This document shows, piece after piece, positions 3,989 through 15,261 of a stretch of DNA of 15,261 nt (position 1 is its first letter; every line of letters starts with the position of its first letter). The translations under genes were made by a program, and so were the position numbers. The notes beneath the pieces were generated by a model, which did not search any database, was not told where the DNA came from, and worked only from the letters and a program-made list of their open reading frames with translations. The stretch is taken from the IMG/VR virus record IMGVR_UViG_2545824644_000012, positions 1 through 15,261 of that record; one strand, 5' to 3'. Origin of the DNA: a virus (Duplodnaviria > Heunggongvirae > Uroviricota > Caudoviricetes).

Positions 3989-4177
3989 TTATCCAGCCGG
4001 TGTTTCGTTATTCAGGTACAGCGATACTTTTTTTACCGGGAGGCATTCACCGGGGATTTTTTGTTCGTCCCTTACCTGAATGCAGGATGACTTACTGTCA
4101 TAAATTCCGGTAATCACATTCTGCGGCTCACCCGTTATAAGAAAAACGGTCATCACCAGTGCAAATGCTGAAGTCAT
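3989..4177 (-). CDS. ydfD: YdfD-like small lysis protein (Qin ydfD homologue)
   Basis: 62-aa ORF with hydrophobic N-terminus (MTSAFALVMTVFLITGEP) and EQKIPG.C.PV.KV pattern recalled from Qin YdfD; GGAG 7 nt upstream; ATG overlaps the dicB stop (ATGA). Confidence 0.6.
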   Translation of the reverse strand: MTSAFALVMTVFLITGEPQNVITGIYDSKSSCIQVRDEQKIPGECLPVKKVSLYLNNETPAG

Positions 4178-4362
4178 TGACGTTCTCCGAAAATACCAAG
4201 TTTAATAAGGGCAATTCGGGAAAGAATGGAATTATCATTGAGCAGATAAGGCTCATATTTCCGCATATTAATGGCATCCTCAGTAAACGCTTTATTACTG
4301 AGCAGAACACCAATATCAAAACAACCTTCAGACGTATTAACGTTTGGTAATAACGTTTCCAT
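4174..4362 (-). CDS. dicB: Cell-division inhibitor DicB homologue
   Basis: 62-aa ORF; N-terminus METLLPNVNTSEGCFDIGV..FTEDAIN.RK matches recalled K-12 DicB (MKTLLPNVNTSEGCFEIGV...FTEDAINKRK); GAGGA 7 nt upstream of the ATG; same length as DicB. Confidence 0.75.
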   Translation of the reverse strand: METLLPNVNTSEGCFDIGVLLSNKAFTEDAINMRKYEPYLLNDNSILSRIALIKLGIFGERQ

Positions 4363-5366: not shown

Positions 5367-5654
5367 TTAAAGATTAGCGGGGAATTGTCGACGGGCGTGA
5401 ACCACGTTTACAATTTCAATACCTGAAGTTGTCACCCGGTACAAAATTATGTAATTGGGGTGAGCCACAATCTCGCGCAAACCTGGCACTCTGTCGCTTG
5501 GCGGATATAAATACGGATGTTCGGATAACGGCAGGACGCAAGCTCTTAAGCGTTGCCATAAGCGTTCTGCCGCATCTATGTCGAAACGGGCAATATAACT
5601 AGTTATATCATCCAGATCGGTATCTGCGCTTTCAAGCCATAACACGGGTAACAT
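5367..5654 (-). CDS. parE2: ParE/RelE-family type II toxin (ParE2-like)
   Basis: 95-aa ORF starting directly after the antitoxin stop (TAA-ATG); RelE/ParE-like size and sequence; partner of a PaaA2-like antitoxin. Confidence 0.8.
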   Translation of the reverse strand: MLPVLWLESADTDLDDITSYIARFDIDAAERLWQRLRACVLPLSEHPYLYPPSDRVPGLREIVAHPNYIILYRVTTSGIEIVNVVHARRQFPANL

Positions 5655-5846
5655 TTACTGCTCTCTCCGTTCCTTGCGAATTTTGGCAAAGCGTTCTGCC
5701 ATTCTGCGCTCAACTTCATCATGTGGAATAGCAGGACGTGGATCAGCAAGGCTTGCGGCTACTTTTGCGCGTAACCATTCGTTATAACTGTTTTCTTGCT
5801 CAACGGTTTCAAATTCAGAAACCATTGGTGAAAGGGCTGTATTCAT
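5655..5846 (-). CDS. paaA2: PaaA2-like antitoxin (63 aa)
   Basis: Using the internal Met gives MNTALSPMVSEFETVEQENSYNEWLRAKVAASLADPRPAIPHDEVERRMAERFAKIRKERREQ, near-identical to the recalled E. coli O157 PaaA2. AGGAGG 6 nt upstream of this ATG; the longer track ORF (to 5909) would overlap the repressor gene. Confidence 0.85.
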   Translation of the reverse strand: MNTALSPMVSEFETVEQENSYNEWLRAKVAASLADPRPAIPHDEVERRMAERFAKIRKERREQ

Positions 5847-6385: not shown

Positions 6386-6646
6386 ATGCTCAATAGCACC
6401 CGTGAAAAAATTAAGCAGAAATACACACAGGCTGAAATAGGACGCTATATGGGAGTAACCCAACAAACTGTTTGGCAATGGTTTAGCTTGGGTATTCCTC
6501 CCAAACAGGTAATCCCTTTATGCCAACTAATGCAGTGGGGGGTTACTCCTCACGAACTCCGACCTGATATTTATCCTAACCCAACAGACGGCTTGCCTGC
6601 TGAGTTTCAGACTAGCACACAGCCAGCGACGGGAGTTGATTCATGA
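6386..6646 (+). CDS. Cro-like HTH regulator (YdaS family)
   Basis: 86-aa ORF; GAGGAGGG Shine-Dalgarno; motif GVTQQTVWQW..GIPP...ELRPD typical of YdaS/Cro-like proteins; divergent from the repressor. Confidence 0.7.
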   Translation: MLNSTREKIKQKYTQAEIGRYMGVTQQTVWQWFSLGIPPKQVIPLCQLMQWGVTPHELRPDIYPNPTDGLPAEFQTSTQPATGVDS

Positions 6647-7068
6647 AAATCAAGCATGAGCACATCCGCATGGCGATGAATGCCTGGGCATATCCTGACG
6701 GTGAGAAAGTTCCCGCAGCTGAAATAGCCCGGACTTATTTCGAACTGGGGATGACGTTCCCGGAACTGTACGACGACACTCATCCTGAGGCCCTGGCTCG
6801 TAATACCCAGAAAATTTTCCGTTGGCTGGATAAAGACACCCATGATGCTGTTGAAAAAATTCAGGCTCTGTTACCGGCGATCGAAAAGGCGATGCCGCCT
6901 TTGCTGGTGGCCCGTATGCGCAGTCACAGTTCTGAGTACTACCGGGAGATTGTCGAACGGCGGGATCGGCTGGTGAAGGATGTCGACGATTTTGTTGCGT
7001 CAGCGGTCGTTTTGTATGACCAGATAAATCGCGGCGGCCCGGCAGGGAATGCTGTGGTGATGCACTAA
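6643..7068 (+). CDS. YdaT-family protein (CII-like regulator / putative toxin)
   Basis: 141-aa ORF beginning MKIKHEHI, as recalled for Rac YdaT; ATG overlaps the cro-like stop (ATGA), matching the ydaS-ydaT arrangement. Confidence 0.6.
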   Translation: MKIKHEHIRMAMNAWAYPDGEKVPAAEIARTYFELGMTFPELYDDTHPEALARNTQKIFRWLDKDTHDAVEKIQALLPAIEKAMPPLLVARMRSHSSEYYREIVERRDRLVKDVDDFVASAVVLYDQINRGGPAGNAVVMH

Positions 7069-11418: not shown

Positions 11419-11593
11419 TGCAGCGGGTGCTTGAGGCTATCTGCCTCGGGCATGAACACCAACGGCAGATAGAGAAAAGCCCCAGTTAACATTACGCGTC
11501 CTGCAAGACGCTTAACATTAATCTGAGGCTCAATCCATGCTGAACACATGTAGGTTAGCCTCTTACGTGCCGAAAGGCAAGGAGAAGCAGGCT

Positions 11594-11749
11594 ATGAAGC
11601 AGCAAAAGGCGATGTTAATCGCCCTGATCGTCATCTGTTTAACCGTCATAGTGACGGCACTGGTAACGAGGAAAGACCTCTGCGAGGTGCGAATCCGAAC
11701 CGGTCAGACGGAGGTCGCTGTCTTCGTAGACTACGAATCTGAGAAGTAA
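11594..11749 (+). CDS. hok: Hok/Gef-family type I toxin (HokD/RelF-like)
   Basis: 51-aa ORF MKQQKAMLIALIVICLTVIVTALVTRKDLCEVRIRTGQTEVAVFVDYESEK with the Hok signature; AAGGAG upstream. The in-frame upstream ATG at 11537 (track ORF) would add a 19-aa extension. Confidence 0.85.
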   Translation: MKQQKAMLIALIVICLTVIVTALVTRKDLCEVRIRTGQTEVAVFVDYESEK

Positions 11750-12608: not shown

Positions 12609-13658
12609 GTGCGGGTATTACTTCGACCTGTTCTGGTTCCGGAACTCGGGCTGGTGGTCCTTAAGCCCGGTCGTGAATCATTGCCAGTTTTTCATCGCGG
12701 CAGGGTGCTGGTGGAGCCGGAACCGAAAAACATGCGCGGTCTGCCGTCCGGAGTCGTTCCTGCCGTTCGCCAGCCGCTGGCAGAGGATAAAACATTACTG
12801 CCATTTTTCAGCGATGAGCGGGTTATTCGTGCAGCAGGTGGTGCAGGTGCACTGTCTGACTGGTTATTACGTCACGTGAAATCCTGCCAGTGGCCACACG
12901 GCGATTATCATCACAGCGAAACCGTCATTCACCGTTACGGTACCGGCGCGATGGTGTTGTGCTGGCACTGTGACAACCAGCTGCGCGACCAGACATCAGA
13001 ATCACTCGATCAACTTGCTCAGCAGAATCTGGTTGCCTGGATGATTGACGTCATCCGTCACGCAATAAGCGGTACGCAGGAGAGGGAGTTATCGCTGGCC
13101 GAATTATCCTGGTGGGCGGCCTGCAGTCAGGTGGTGGATGCACTACCTGAGGCAGTAGCGCGTCGTTCGCTGGGATTACCAGCGGAAAAAATCCGCTCCG
13201 TATACCGTGAGAGTGACATCGTACCGGGAGAACAGACAGCCATCAGCATACTGAAGCAGCGCACAAAAAATATTGCGCTGCCACTTCACGTCCACCAGCA
13301 ACAAAATCCACCACAGAAAAAAACGGTTGTCAGTATCGCCGTTGATCCGGAGTCTCCTGAATCGTTCATGAGGCGGCCTAAACGTCGCCGTTGGGTTAAT
13401 GAGAAATACACGCGCTGGGTAAAGACACAGCCGTGTGCGTGTTGTGGTAAGCCTGCTGACGATCCGCATCACCTGATTGGTCATGGTCAGGGGGGAATGG
13501 GGACAAAGGCCCACGATATTTTCACGCTACCGTTGTGCCGGGAGCACCACAACGAACTTCATGCAGACCCGCTGGAGTTTGAGAAAAAGTACGGCTCTCA
13601 GATTGAGTTAATTTTTCGTTTTCTTGATCACGCCTTTGCGACTGGCGTGCTCGGGTAA
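12609..13658 (+). CDS. DUF968-like protein (YdfU family) with C-terminal HNH-like Cys/His motif
   Basis: GTG start at 12609 (GGAGG 4 nt upstream) gives 349 aa; C-terminal CACCGKPADDPHHLIGHG...CREHHNELH resembles an HNH/zinc-binding nuclease motif. The track start at 12555 lacks a ribosome-binding site and overlaps the upstream gene. Confidence 0.65.
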   Translation: MRVLLRPVLVPELGLVVLKPGRESLPVFHRGRVLVEPEPKNMRGLPSGVVPAVRQPLAEDKTLLPFFSDERVIRAAGGAGALSDWLLRHVKSCQWPHGDYHHSETVIHRYGTGAMVLCWHCDNQLRDQTSESLDQLAQQNLVAWMIDVIRHAISGTQERELSLAELSWWAACSQVVDALPEAVARRSLGLPAEKIRSVYRESDIVPGEQTAISILKQRTKNIALPLHVHQQQNPPQKKTVVSIAVDPESPESFMRRPKRRRWVNEKYTRWVKTQPCACCGKPADDPHHLIGHGQGGMGTKAHDIFTLPLCREHHNELHADPLEFEKKYGSQIELIFRFLDHAFATGVLG

Positions 13659-13670
13659 AAGAGGTGACTG

Positions 13671-14044
13671 ATGCTCATAGATTTGGTTTTACCTTACCCG
13701 CCGACGGTGAACACTTACTGGAGACGCCGTGGCAGCACATATTTTGTATCAAAAGCAGGGGAGCGTTATCGCCGGCAGTGGCGCTTATTGTTCGCCAGCA
13801 GCGACTGAAATTAAGCCTGTCCGGACGGCTGGCAATAAAAATTATTGCAGAGCCACCGGATAAGCGTCGTCGCGACCTGGACAATATTCTGAAAGCACCG
13901 CTGGATGCGCTGACGCATGCGGGAGTGCTTATTGATGACGAGCAGTTTGATGAAATCAATATTGTACGTGGTCAGCCAGTATCTGGTGGACGTCTGGGGG
14001 TGAAGATTTACCCCATAATGCTTGAAGGGCAGGTCAAAAAATGA
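13671..14044 (+). pseudogene. rusA: rusA Holliday-junction resolvase, apparently disrupted by a -1 frameshift
   Basis: From ATG 13671 (AAGAGG 6 nt upstream) the frame reads MLIDLVLPYPPTVNTYWRRRGSTYFVSKAGERYRR, matching the RusA N-terminus, then stops at 13806-13808. The RusA C-terminus (AVALIV...PDKRRRDLDN...) continues in the -1 frame to 14044. The shift maps to the G-run near 13774-13776. Confidence 0.65.
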
Positions 14045-14862
14045 AACTGGAAGATTTACCGAAATACTACTCCCCAAAATCCCCCGGCCTGACTGATGCA
14101 TCGGCCTCAACGTCAAAAGATGCGCTGAGTATCACTGATGTGATGGCCGCGCAGGGCATGACACAGAATCGGGCTGAGATGGGGTTTTCTGCGTTCCTTG
14201 GGAAAATGGGCATTAGTATGAATGACAGAGAGCGGGCAACAGAATTGCTGACAGAATATGCACTCAGTCGGTGTGATCGCGTGGCGGCGTTAAGAAAACT
14301 CCCGGCAGAAATAAAACCGGCAGTGATGCGAATTATGGCTTCGTATGCGTTTGAAGATTATGCCCGTAGCGCGGCGAGCAAAAAACAGTGCCCCTGCTGT
14401 CACGGAAAAAAATTTATTGAAAGCGAGGTTTTTACAAACAAGATCCAGTATCCGGATGGTAAGCCGCCAGTGTGGGCAAAGTGCACAAAAGGCGTGTATC
14501 CGTCTTACTGGGAGGAATGGAAAAAAGTCAGGGAGGTGGTAAAAGTTGCCTGTCCGGAGTGTGGCGGAAAGGGGGAGGTTTCCACCGCCTGTAAAGATTG
14601 TCGTGGGCGCGGTGTTGCCATTCATCGTGAAGAGTCGGAAAAACAGGGTGTGCCGGTTTTCAGAAACTGCCAGCGTTGTGGTGGGCGTGGCTATGAAAGA
14701 TTACCTTCAACGGAGGCATTTAATGCCATATGTAATGTAACCGATGCCATATCTCTTGATACATGGAAAAAAACAGTTAAACGTTTTTACGATACGCTGG
14801 TGGTGCAGTTTGATATTGAAGAAGCATGGGCAGAACAACAACTGAAAAAGGTGACCAGATAG
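14041..14862 (+). CDS. Putative Q-type late antiterminator (QuuQ-like) with DnaJ-type CxxCxGxG zinc-finger repeats
   Basis: 273-aa ORF; ATG overlaps the rusA stop (ATGA). Cys motifs CPCCHGKK, CPECGGKG, CKDCRGRG, CQRCGGRG. Position between rusA and a downstream promoter-like region matches lambdoid Q. Confidence 0.55.
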   Translation: MKLEDLPKYYSPKSPGLTDASASTSKDALSITDVMAAQGMTQNRAEMGFSAFLGKMGISMNDRERATELLTEYALSRCDRVAALRKLPAEIKPAVMRIMASYAFEDYARSAASKKQCPCCHGKKFIESEVFTNKIQYPDGKPPVWAKCTKGVYPSYWEEWKKVREVVKVACPECGGKGEVSTACKDCRGRGVAIHREESEKQGVPVFRNCQRCGGRGYERLPSTEAFNAICNVTDAISLDTWKKTVKRFYDTLVVQFDIEEAWAEQQLKKVTR

Positions 14863-14867
14863 CTTTG

Positions 14868-14895
14868 TTGATTTTTCCCGAATCTGTGGTAAATT
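14868..14895 (+). promoter_or_regulatory. Candidate late (pR'-like) promoter downstream of the Q-like gene
   Basis: -35 TTGATT (14868-14873), 16-bp spacer, -10 TAAATT (14890-14895), immediately after the Q-like stop. Confidence 0.35.
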
Positions 14896-15087
14896 TGCCC
14901 TAACGATGGGCGTTTTATGCCTGACGTTAGAAGATTTTTACACCCGTCGCCAGGCGGTTTTTTTTATGACTGAAATCACGCCAGTACAGTAAACGCGCTG
15001 GTGGCGGTGAATACCGGTCTTTCAGCTTGCTGGCTTTTTTGACAAGAGTTATTGGTGTGTCACGTTAACCGGAAAAGGGAAAAAGAC

Positions 15088-15261
15088 ATGCTGAAACAGC
15101 AGGATATGACCGAAACTGCCAGAGTGGTGTTTAATGAATTAAGCGTCACCGAACCGGCGACAGTCGGGGAGATTGCGCAGAATACTTACCTTTCACGCGA
15201 ACGCTGCCAGTTAATACTGACCCAGCTTGTTATGGCGGGTCTGGCAGACTATCAGTGCGGT
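15088..15261 (+). CDS. Partial ORF (N-terminal 58 aa), continues beyond the window
   Basis: ATG at 15088 with a weak ribosome-binding site; open to the window end (MLKQQDMTETARVVFNELSVTEPATVGEIAQNTYLSRERCQLILTQLVMAGLADYQCG); possible winged-helix. Confidence 0.35.
   Translation, partial: MLKQQDMTETARVVFNELSVTEPATVGEIAQNTYLSRERCQLILTQLVMAGLADYQCG

What the first reader, a model, noticed from the sequence alone, without database searches (positions are those of the whole stretch)
13671..14044. rusA appears frameshifted at a short G-run
The RusA N-terminus (LPYPPTVNTYWRRRG...ERYRR) and C-terminus (AVALIV...PDKRRRDLDN...) are in different frames, joined by what looks like loss of one G near 13774-13776; the first frame stops at 13806. 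This is either a genuine pseudogene or a homopolymer sequencing error. The downstream Q-like gene start overlaps the stop of the C-terminal frame, so coupling into Q may be affected.
Basis: seen in the sequence. Interest (0 to 1): 0.5.

Follow-up and report, generated by a model that had tools for sequence, protein, structure and literature searches.

The report
Genuine one-base frameshift in prophage rusA
A prophage copy of the DNA-repair nuclease gene rusA has really lost one G and is a dead gene, inherited by many E. coli isolates; this is ordinary prophage decay that public annotation already flags.

Summary
rusA starts at ATG 13671 and runs in frame for 35 native codons. It has GG at 13774-13775 where intact alleles have GGG, so it shifts frame and stops at TGA 13806-13808. 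The remaining 89 codons lie in the -1 frame up to 14044. Adding one G gives a 124-aa protein that matches Pfam RusA end to end and exists exactly in other E. coli.

This is not a sequencing error. The window equals the E. coli TW07509 draft. The same junction is in two Nanopore-only closed O104:H7 STEC genomes, three further NCBI drafts, three Logan run assemblies and one IMG/VR contig. The junction-spanning ORF product is on record on 35 contigs.

One carrier has the broken allele joined to a different rusA 3' end and a different Q gene, so the allele has survived a recombination event. All catalytic residues lie downstream of the break, so the expected product is an inactive 45-aa peptide. 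No slippery site supports recoding.

The rusA stop does overlap the Q start (ATGA). However, Q has its own accessible Shine-Dalgarno-like sequence, and a related phage lacks the overlap, so any effect on Q is probably small.

RefSeq (PGAP) already annotates this CDS as a frameshifted pseudogene. Interest is low.

The parts
12609..13658 (+). Upstream gene encoding a DUF968 protein (349 aa, PGAP coordinates). Its stop lies 12 nt before the rusA ATG.
   Evidence: Pfam DUF968 PF06147, E 7.6e-77. PGAP CDS WP_021499165.1 in L001 and L002.
13660..13665 (+). Shine-Dalgarno sequence (AGAGGT) of rusA, with an ATG-proximal spacing of about 5 nt.
   Evidence: Duplex with the 16S rRNA 3' end -7.1 kcal/mol. 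It overlaps GTG 13664, so the 126-aa ORF that gene callers report is not a plausible translation start.
13671..13808 (+). The part of rusA expected to be translated: 35 native codons, then 10 out-of-frame codons, then the TGA stop (45-aa product).
   Evidence: No Pfam match for this piece alone.
13774..13775 (+). Deletion site: GG here, GGG in intact alleles (CGCCGGCAG against CGCCGGGCAG).
   Evidence: Alignment to SS17. L017 and L018 carry CCGGGC with identical flanks. All listed non-identical E. coli hits are one base longer.
13806..13808 (+). Premature TGA stop in the N-terminal frame.
13775..14044 (+). Remnant of rusA codons 36-124 in the -1 frame. It carries all the catalytic residues (D69, D71, K75, D89/D90, which are K-12 D70, D72, K76, D90/D91).
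   Evidence: Pfam RusA profile positions 31-123. Ungapped alignment to PDB 1q8r and 2h8c. Catalytic residues taken from PMC1636454.
14024..14034 (+). Shine-Dalgarno-like sequence belonging to Q (GAAGGGCAGGT).
   Evidence: Duplex -8.2 kcal/mol, spacing 5. Mean probability of being unpaired 0.37-0.50, with the AUG at 0.65-0.90.
14041..14862 (+). Antitermination protein Q (273 aa). Its ATG overlaps the rusA stop as ATGA at 14041-14044.
   Evidence: Pfam Antiterm PF03589, E 5.3e-52. PGAP WP_000762902.1.

Best explanation
This is a genuine, heritable null allele of a prophage rusA gene (RusA-family Holliday junction resolvase).

One G was lost from a GGG run in codon 36. Translation from ATG 13671 therefore leaves the RusA frame after residue 35 and stops 10 codons later. 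The product is a 45-aa peptide that lacks the catalytic acidic residues and lysine, so no resolvase is made.

The mutation arose in a lambdoid prophage integrated next to ompW and is now fixed in that prophage lineage in E. coli, including O104:H7 STEC. It has also been carried by recombination into a second mosaic prophage with a different Q module.

Shown here: the deletion, its presence in many independent assemblies, its derived state, and the position of the break relative to the catalytic residues. Inferred: that no active protein is made, that the loss is roughly neutral because rusA lies in the dispensable nin-like region, and that Q translation continues from its own ribosome-binding site.
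For: - **Anatomy.** Two frames, GG against GGG, and a repaired 124-aa protein that matches Pfam RusA full length.
- **Independent assemblies.** The window has 0 differences over 4,598 nt from the TW07509 draft contig (L007) and 7 SNPs over 15,261 nt from each of two closed genomes. All of L001, L002 and L004-L010 carry the junction TATCGCCGGCAGTGG. The exact 126-aa junction-spanning product is on 35 contigs from NCBI, ENA and Logan, in 55 index blocks.
- **Small differences among carriers.** Most pairs differ by 1-4 substitutions, and some by a 2-base indel, so they are not all copies of one assembly.
- **Derived state.** In 5,426 complete E. coli genomes only the two O104:H7 strains have the deletion. 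932 genomes match at least 80% of the 54-nt junction query, and all 28 listed non-identical hits are one base longer. L017 and L018 carry CCGGGC with identical flanks. The repaired protein exists exactly (P0016).
- **Second mosaic context.** L016 has identical nucleotides from 13471 to about 13992, including the deletion. It then has a different rusA 3' end and a PF06323-type Q.
- **Loss of function.** The alignment to PDB 1q8r is ungapped and places the break at K-12 residue 36. D70, D72, K76 and D90/D91 are critical for cleavage (PMC1636454).
- **Existing annotation.** PGAP marks the CDS as a frameshifted pseudogene in both closed genomes.
Against: - I could not inspect raw reads.
- The two closed genomes are Nanopore-only (PMC12613899).
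- I infer, but did not verify, that the draft and Logan assemblies come from short reads.
- All carriers are very similar (0-4 substitutions over up to 6.4 kb), so they represent essentially one prophage lineage plus one recombinant, not many independent events.
- Nothing here measures protein or activity.
Confidence: 0.93

Rival explanations
1. Homopolymer sequencing or assembly error: the real genome has GGG and an intact 124-aa rusA.
For: The site is a short G run. The only two complete genomes with the deletion were assembled from Nanopore reads alone.
Against: The identical junction is in the TW07509 draft, three other NCBI drafts, three Logan run assemblies and an IMG/VR contig, with 35 contigs on record for the exact product. 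It also occurs in a second prophage context with a different downstream sequence. A random error would not recur at one base across unrelated projects. A 3-base run is also not a typical error hotspot for short reads (background knowledge).
Confidence: 0.02
2. Programmed recoding: ribosomes shift -1 at or near 13775, or the polymerase slips, so some full-length RusA is made from the broken gene.
For: A -1 shift at CGG/GCA would restore the native sequence exactly. The two frames overlap with no stop from 13664 to 13808. A small GC-rich inverted repeat surrounds the site.
Against: There is no X XXY YYZ heptamer in frame anywhere in 13671-13808, and no homopolymer longer than 4. The single-ORF form is the norm in about 930 genomes, and the shifted form is a rare derived state. 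An open overlap of 37 codons is expected by chance about 17% of the time (my own estimate, (61/64)^37).
Confidence: 0.015
3. A C-terminal fragment is expressed and retains some function. This would be either the 126-aa ORF from GTG 13664, as gene callers annotate it, or an 88-aa product from GTG 13778.
For: Both ORFs are called as proteins in public records (P0001 and P0002). The fragment holds all the catalytic residues. GGGGAG lies upstream of GTG 13778.
Against: GTG 13664 sits inside the Shine-Dalgarno sequence that serves ATG 13671, and its own upstream match is weak (-3.8 kcal/mol). The GGGGAG lies about 14 nt from GTG 13778, beyond the usual spacing, and that codon is inside a stretch being translated in another frame. 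The fragment would lack residues 1-36. In K-12 RusA these include the first strand and the flexible loop 15-28 that contacts DNA (PMC1636454).
Confidence: 0.03

Closest known systems
E. coli K-12 RusA (DLP12 prophage; PDB 1q8r, 2h8c, 2h8e)
   Same: The repaired protein aligns without gaps to residues 6-114 of the solved enzyme (E 2e-21). It conserves the RRRDLDN...K...DD catalytic motif (residues from PMC1636454). Both genes sit in prophages just upstream of a Q antiterminator gene.
   Different: The K-12 gene is intact but transcriptionally silent until an IS insertion activates it (PMC1636454). The window gene is interrupted by a 1-nt deletion at the equivalent of K-12 residue 36 and cannot encode the enzyme.
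Intact rusA alleles in the DUF968-rusA-Q module of E. coli lambdoid prophages and phages (O157:H7 SS17, E2863, 203740, phage mEp460_ev081, Stx2a phage Stx2_EH1910)
   Same: Same gene order and same 4-nt ATGA overlap with Q in the chromosomal alleles. The rusA region is about 93-96% identical in nucleotides.
   Different: They have GGG at the site and a single 124-aa ORF. mEp460 instead has an earlier stop, so its rusA ends 15 nt before Q.
PGAP/RefSeq annotation of NZ_AP042495.1 and NZ_AP042676.1 (loci ACZ5Q8_RS17520 and ACZ45U_RS17640)
   Same: Same sequence, with coordinates equivalent to window 13671-14044, annotated 'RusA family crossover junction endodeoxyribonuclease, frameshifted'.
   Different: Nothing differs. 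This is the same feature already recorded as a pseudogene.

Membership tests
RusA Holliday junction resolvase (Pfam PF05866) | Full-length match to the family profile | tested here: met
The real C-frame ORF matches positions 31-123, and the real 45-aa product matches nothing.
RusA Holliday junction resolvase (Pfam PF05866) | Homology to the solved RusA structure | tested here: met
   PDB 1q8r E 2e-21 and 2h8c E 1e-20, ungapped over 109 residues.
RusA Holliday junction resolvase (Pfam PF05866) | Catalytic residues equivalent to K-12 D70, D72, K76 and D90/D91 are encoded | tested here: met
   RRRDLDNILK and IDDE align to RRRDLDNLQK and LDDA. Residue roles are from PMC1636454. They are encoded only in the frame that is not reached from the start codon.
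RusA Holliday junction resolvase (Pfam PF05866) | One uninterrupted ORF of about 120 aa from a start codon with a ribosome-binding site, that is, a functional gene | tested here: not met
   The frame from ATG 13671 stops at 13806-13808 after 45 codons. It is a pseudogene of the family, not a functional member.
RusA Holliday junction resolvase (Pfam PF05866) | Mg2+-dependent cleavage of Holliday junctions; suppression of ruv mutations | not testable with these tools
   Needs biochemistry or genetics.
Programmed -1 ribosomal frameshift site | Slippery heptamer X XXY YYZ in the upstream frame at the shift site | tested here: not met
   None found in frame in 13671-13808, or in any register in 13664-13808.
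Programmed -1 ribosomal frameshift site | The two-frame arrangement is conserved among relatives | tested here: not met
   Only 2 of 5,426 complete genomes have it. All 38 and all 28 listed non-identical hits are one base longer.
Phase-variable homopolymer (contingency locus) | A long tract (typically 7 or more bases) whose length varies within a lineage | tested here: not met
   The tract is 2-3 bases long. All 11 carrier sequences examined, including the window, have GG. The tract-length criterion is background knowledge.
Lambdoid Q antiterminator (Pfam PF03589) - the downstream gene | Match to the family profile above the gathering score | tested here: met
   E 5.3e-52, 174.4 bits against a cut-off of 26.7.

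The most novel reading that the evidence does not exclude
Loss of RusA may be favoured rather than neutral. For example, a resident prophage resolvase could harm the host. Alternatively, 232 nt of untranslated RNA ahead of Q could lower Q expression and stabilise lysogeny. Either would explain why the same broken allele sits in two different mosaic prophages, and why it is recorded on more contigs (35) than its exact intact twin (18).
Probability: 0.06. Interest if true: 0.3.

Novelty: already known. Interest (0 to 1): 0.06.

Why it matters
It matters little beyond correct annotation. This locus should be read as a rusA pseudogene, not as the 126-aa or 88-aa 'RusA family' proteins that some gene callers have deposited. 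The strain should not be assumed to have a prophage-borne backup Holliday junction resolvase from this prophage. The one-base deletion is a handy lineage marker for this ompW-adjacent prophage in O104:H7-type STEC. The recombinant in L016 is a neat small example of lambdoid mosaic exchange with a breakpoint inside the 3' end of rusA.

Tried and rejected
- **Sequencing error.** Rejected because the junction recurs in many unrelated assemblies.
- **Programmed frameshift or transcriptional slippage.** Rejected because there is no slippery heptamer, no long homopolymer and no conservation.
- **The 126-aa ORF from GTG 13664 as a real gene.** Rejected because the GTG lies inside the Shine-Dalgarno sequence of ATG 13671 and has only a weak one of its own.
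- **Strong polarity on Q.** Not supported. Q has its own accessible ribosome-binding site. The untranslated stretch has a C/G ratio of 0.4-1.0, so it is not C-rich as Rho loading sites usually are. No promoter-like site was found in 13300-15261. The only terminator-like match between rusA and Q is the weak hairpin at the deletion site itself.
- **Scanning IMG/VR with the restored-G sequence.** I replaced it with a pattern from the window carrying an optional base, which found two intact alleles.
- **The 45-aa product.** It is not in the protein collection, probably because gene callers prefer the longer ORF.
- **Literature search for TW07509.** It found nothing, so I could not establish that strain's serotype or sequencing platform.

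Full report
**The observation**

The window sequence between 13660 and 14050 reads as the first-stage reader said.

- A Shine-Dalgarno sequence, AGAGGT, lies at 13660-13665 and is followed by ATG 13671.
- That frame encodes MLIDLVLPYPPTVNTYWRRRGSTYFVSKAGERYRR, then ten unrelated residues, then TGA at 13806-13808.
- The rest of a RusA protein (AVALIVRQQ...PDKRRRDLDN...GQVKK) is in the -1 frame and ends at TGA 14042-14044.
- The two frames meet at CGCCGGCAG, with GG at 13774-13775.
- Inserting one G there gives a 124-aa protein that matches Pfam RusA PF05866 over positions 1-123 of 124 (E 1.9e-16). The real C-frame ORF matches only positions 31-123, and the real 45-aa product matches nothing.
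- Q (273 aa, Pfam Antiterm, E 5.3e-52) starts at ATG 14041 and overlaps the rusA stop as ATGA.

**Where the window comes from**

The window is the left part of a lambdoid prophage integrated next to ompW. The gene order is integrase, excisionase, exonuclease, dicB, relBE, repressor-like and YdaS/YdaT genes, replication genes, hok/sok, DUF968, rusA, Q.

It is colinear with two closed E. coli O104:H7 stx2a genomes from cattle in Okinawa, OkiPb01678 and OkiPb01712. It differs from each by 7 substitutions in 15,261 nt and by no indels. Over the 4,598 nt that can be compared it is identical to contig AVRH01000032.1 of the E. coli TW07509 draft assembly, which is probably its source.

In both closed genomes PGAP already annotates exactly this CDS as 'RusA family crossover junction endodeoxyribonuclease, frameshifted', marked pseudo.

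**Real mutation or sequencing error**

The two closed genomes were assembled from Nanopore R10.4.1 reads alone (PMC12613899). On their own they would not exclude a homopolymer error. Other evidence does.

- The 126-aa ORF that spans the junction can only exist if the G is missing. Its exact product is in the public protein collection on 35 contigs from NCBI, ENA and Logan.
- A look-up of encoding contigs found it in 55 index blocks. It returned DNA from four NCBI drafts (GCA_000462285.2, GCA_005392765.1, GCA_022325535.1, GCA_021080885.1) and three Logan assemblies of public runs (ERR4014737, SRR1999968, SRR13442805).
- Every one of these loci carries the junction TATCGCCGGCAGTGG.
- Most pairs of carriers differ by 1-4 substitutions, and some by a 2-base indel, so they are not all copies of one assembly.
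- The same junction is also in an IMG/VR contig.

I infer from the contig sizes and dates that most of these are short-read assemblies. I could not verify platforms or see reads.

**Direction of the change**

- A 501-nt query across the gene matched 3,278 of 5,426 complete E. coli genomes. Only the two O104:H7 strains gave a 501-base match, and all 38 other listed hits spanned 502 bases.
- A 54-nt query centred on the junction gave the same picture. Two exact matches were found, 932 genomes matched at least 80% of the query, and all 28 listed non-identical hits were one base longer.
- A pattern built from the window with an optional extra base at the junction found two IMG/VR contigs, L017 and L018. 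They have identical flanks and CCGGGC.
- The repaired 124-aa protein exists exactly in other E. coli (P0016, 18 contigs).
The gene is therefore normally under purifying selection.

The GG state is a derived one-base deletion from GGG.

**A second context**

The IMG/VR contig L016 has the same deletion. It is identical to the window in nucleotides from 13471 to about 13992, with only 6 mismatches back to 12371. From about 13993 it continues with a different rusA 3' end (...GGRLEIRITEVGVHE) and a different antiterminator, a 231-aa protein of Pfam PF06323 (E 3.7e-83).

The frameshifted 122-aa product of this version is on record on only that one contig. Its repaired 120-aa form also exists in nature (WP_123129561.1).

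The simplest reading is one origin of the deletion followed by a modular exchange with a breakpoint inside the 3' end of rusA. Two independent deletions at the same GGG cannot be excluded. Either way, a second sequence background carrying the same missing base is further evidence that the deletion is real.

**Consequence for the protein**

The repaired protein aligns without gaps to E. coli K-12 RusA (PDB 1q8r, E 2e-21), with query residue n matching K-12 residue n+1. The break therefore falls at K-12 residue 36.

The residues critical for cleavage (D70, D72, K76, D90/D91) and the DNA-binding R69 all lie downstream of the break (PMC1636454). The 45-aa product has none of them.

The C-terminal part is unlikely to be made.

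- GTG 13664 lies inside the Shine-Dalgarno sequence of ATG 13671 and has only a weak upstream match (-3.8 kcal/mol).
- The only other in-frame start is GTG 13778. It is about 14 nt from a GGGGAG and lies inside RNA being translated in another frame.
- Such a fragment would lack the first strand and the flexible loop 15-28 that contacts DNA.

I conclude that this is a null allele. That conclusion is inferred, not measured.

**Recoding**

A -1 shift at CGG/GCA would restore the native sequence. However, there is no X XXY YYZ heptamer in frame anywhere in 13671-13808, and no homopolymer longer than four bases. The two-frame layout is also not conserved. A small GC-rich inverted repeat (CGCC...GGCG) brackets the site and was picked up by the terminator scan. 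It might have favoured slippage during replication, but that is speculation.

**Effect on Q**

With the frameshift, ribosomes stop 232 nt before the Q start, so any termination-reinitiation coupling at ATGA is lost. Four observations suggest the effect is small.

- Q has its own Shine-Dalgarno-like sequence (-8.2 kcal/mol, spacing 5), at least as good as that of rusA (-7.1).
- In three folding contexts its mean probability of being unpaired is 0.37-0.50, and the AUG is at 0.65-0.90. The rusA Shine-Dalgarno sequence scores 0.25.
- The untranslated stretch has a C/G ratio of 0.4-1.0, so it is not C-rich as Rho loading sites usually are.
- In phage mEp460_ev081 an earlier stop ends rusA 15 nt before Q, so the overlap is not a fixed feature of the module.

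All four points are predictions or comparisons. Only reporter fusions would settle it.

**Comparison with what is known, and verdict**

The feature is a pseudogene of the RusA family. It meets the sequence, structure-homology and catalytic-motif criteria only in its repaired form, and it fails the criterion of a single open reading frame.

rusA lies in the nin-like region just upstream of Q. In lambda that region is dispensable for lytic growth (background knowledge). K-12's own rusA is normally silent (PMC1636454). Loss of this gene is therefore expected to cost little.

Frameshifted genes in resident prophages are commonplace, and public annotation already records this one. It is a correct observation with a correct interpretation, now resolved in favour of a real mutation. 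It is of low interest.

Noticed in passing
L016:7439-8482 (IMGVR_UViG_2548876865_000009), equivalent to window 13671 onward: The same frameshifted rusA allele is joined, from about window 13993, to a different rusA 3' end and a different Q antiterminator family (PF06323 instead of PF03589). This points to a lambdoid mosaic breakpoint inside the 3' end of rusA.
   Followed up: partly
window 6386-6659, with the indel near 6636: PGAP marks the YdaS-family (Cro-position) gene as frameshifted. Against an intact relative that is only 84% identical, the window has one extra T. This changes only the last ~7 codons, in the stretch that overlaps the YdaT start (86 aa against 90 aa). It may be harmless variation rather than inactivation.
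   Followed up: partly
window 14944-14965: A GC-rich hairpin (CCGTCGCCAGGCGG) followed by eight T's lies about 80 nt downstream of the Q stop. That is the position expected for the terminator on which Q acts (tR'-like). It is a consensus match only.
   Followed up: no
window 11425-11749: Rfam sok antitoxin match (113.5 bits, E 1.1e-25) lies next to a Hok/Gef toxin ORF. The prophage also carries relBE (5367-5846) and dicB (4174-4362).
   Followed up: no
window 13770-13783: The deleted G lies within a short GC-rich inverted repeat (CGCC GGCAGT GGCG) that the terminator scan flagged. It could have promoted replication slippage, and there is no evidence that it has a function.
   Followed up: no
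L001:20250-20808 (outside the window, lysis region of the same prophage): A further CDS in this prophage is annotated as frameshifted in both Nanopore-only closed genomes. I did not check it against other assemblies.
   Followed up: no
L014:1572-1928 (phage mEp460_ev081): rusA in this phage ends at a stop six codons earlier than in the E. coli prophage alleles, so it does not overlap the Q start codon.
   Followed up: partly
public records for window 13664-14044 and 13778-14044: The out-of-frame 126-aa ORF (for example ERC60746.1, GDN98294.1) and an 88-aa internal-start ORF (for example EEC7775478.1) are deposited as 'RusA family' proteins. These are gene-caller artefacts of the pseudogene.
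   Followed up: yes
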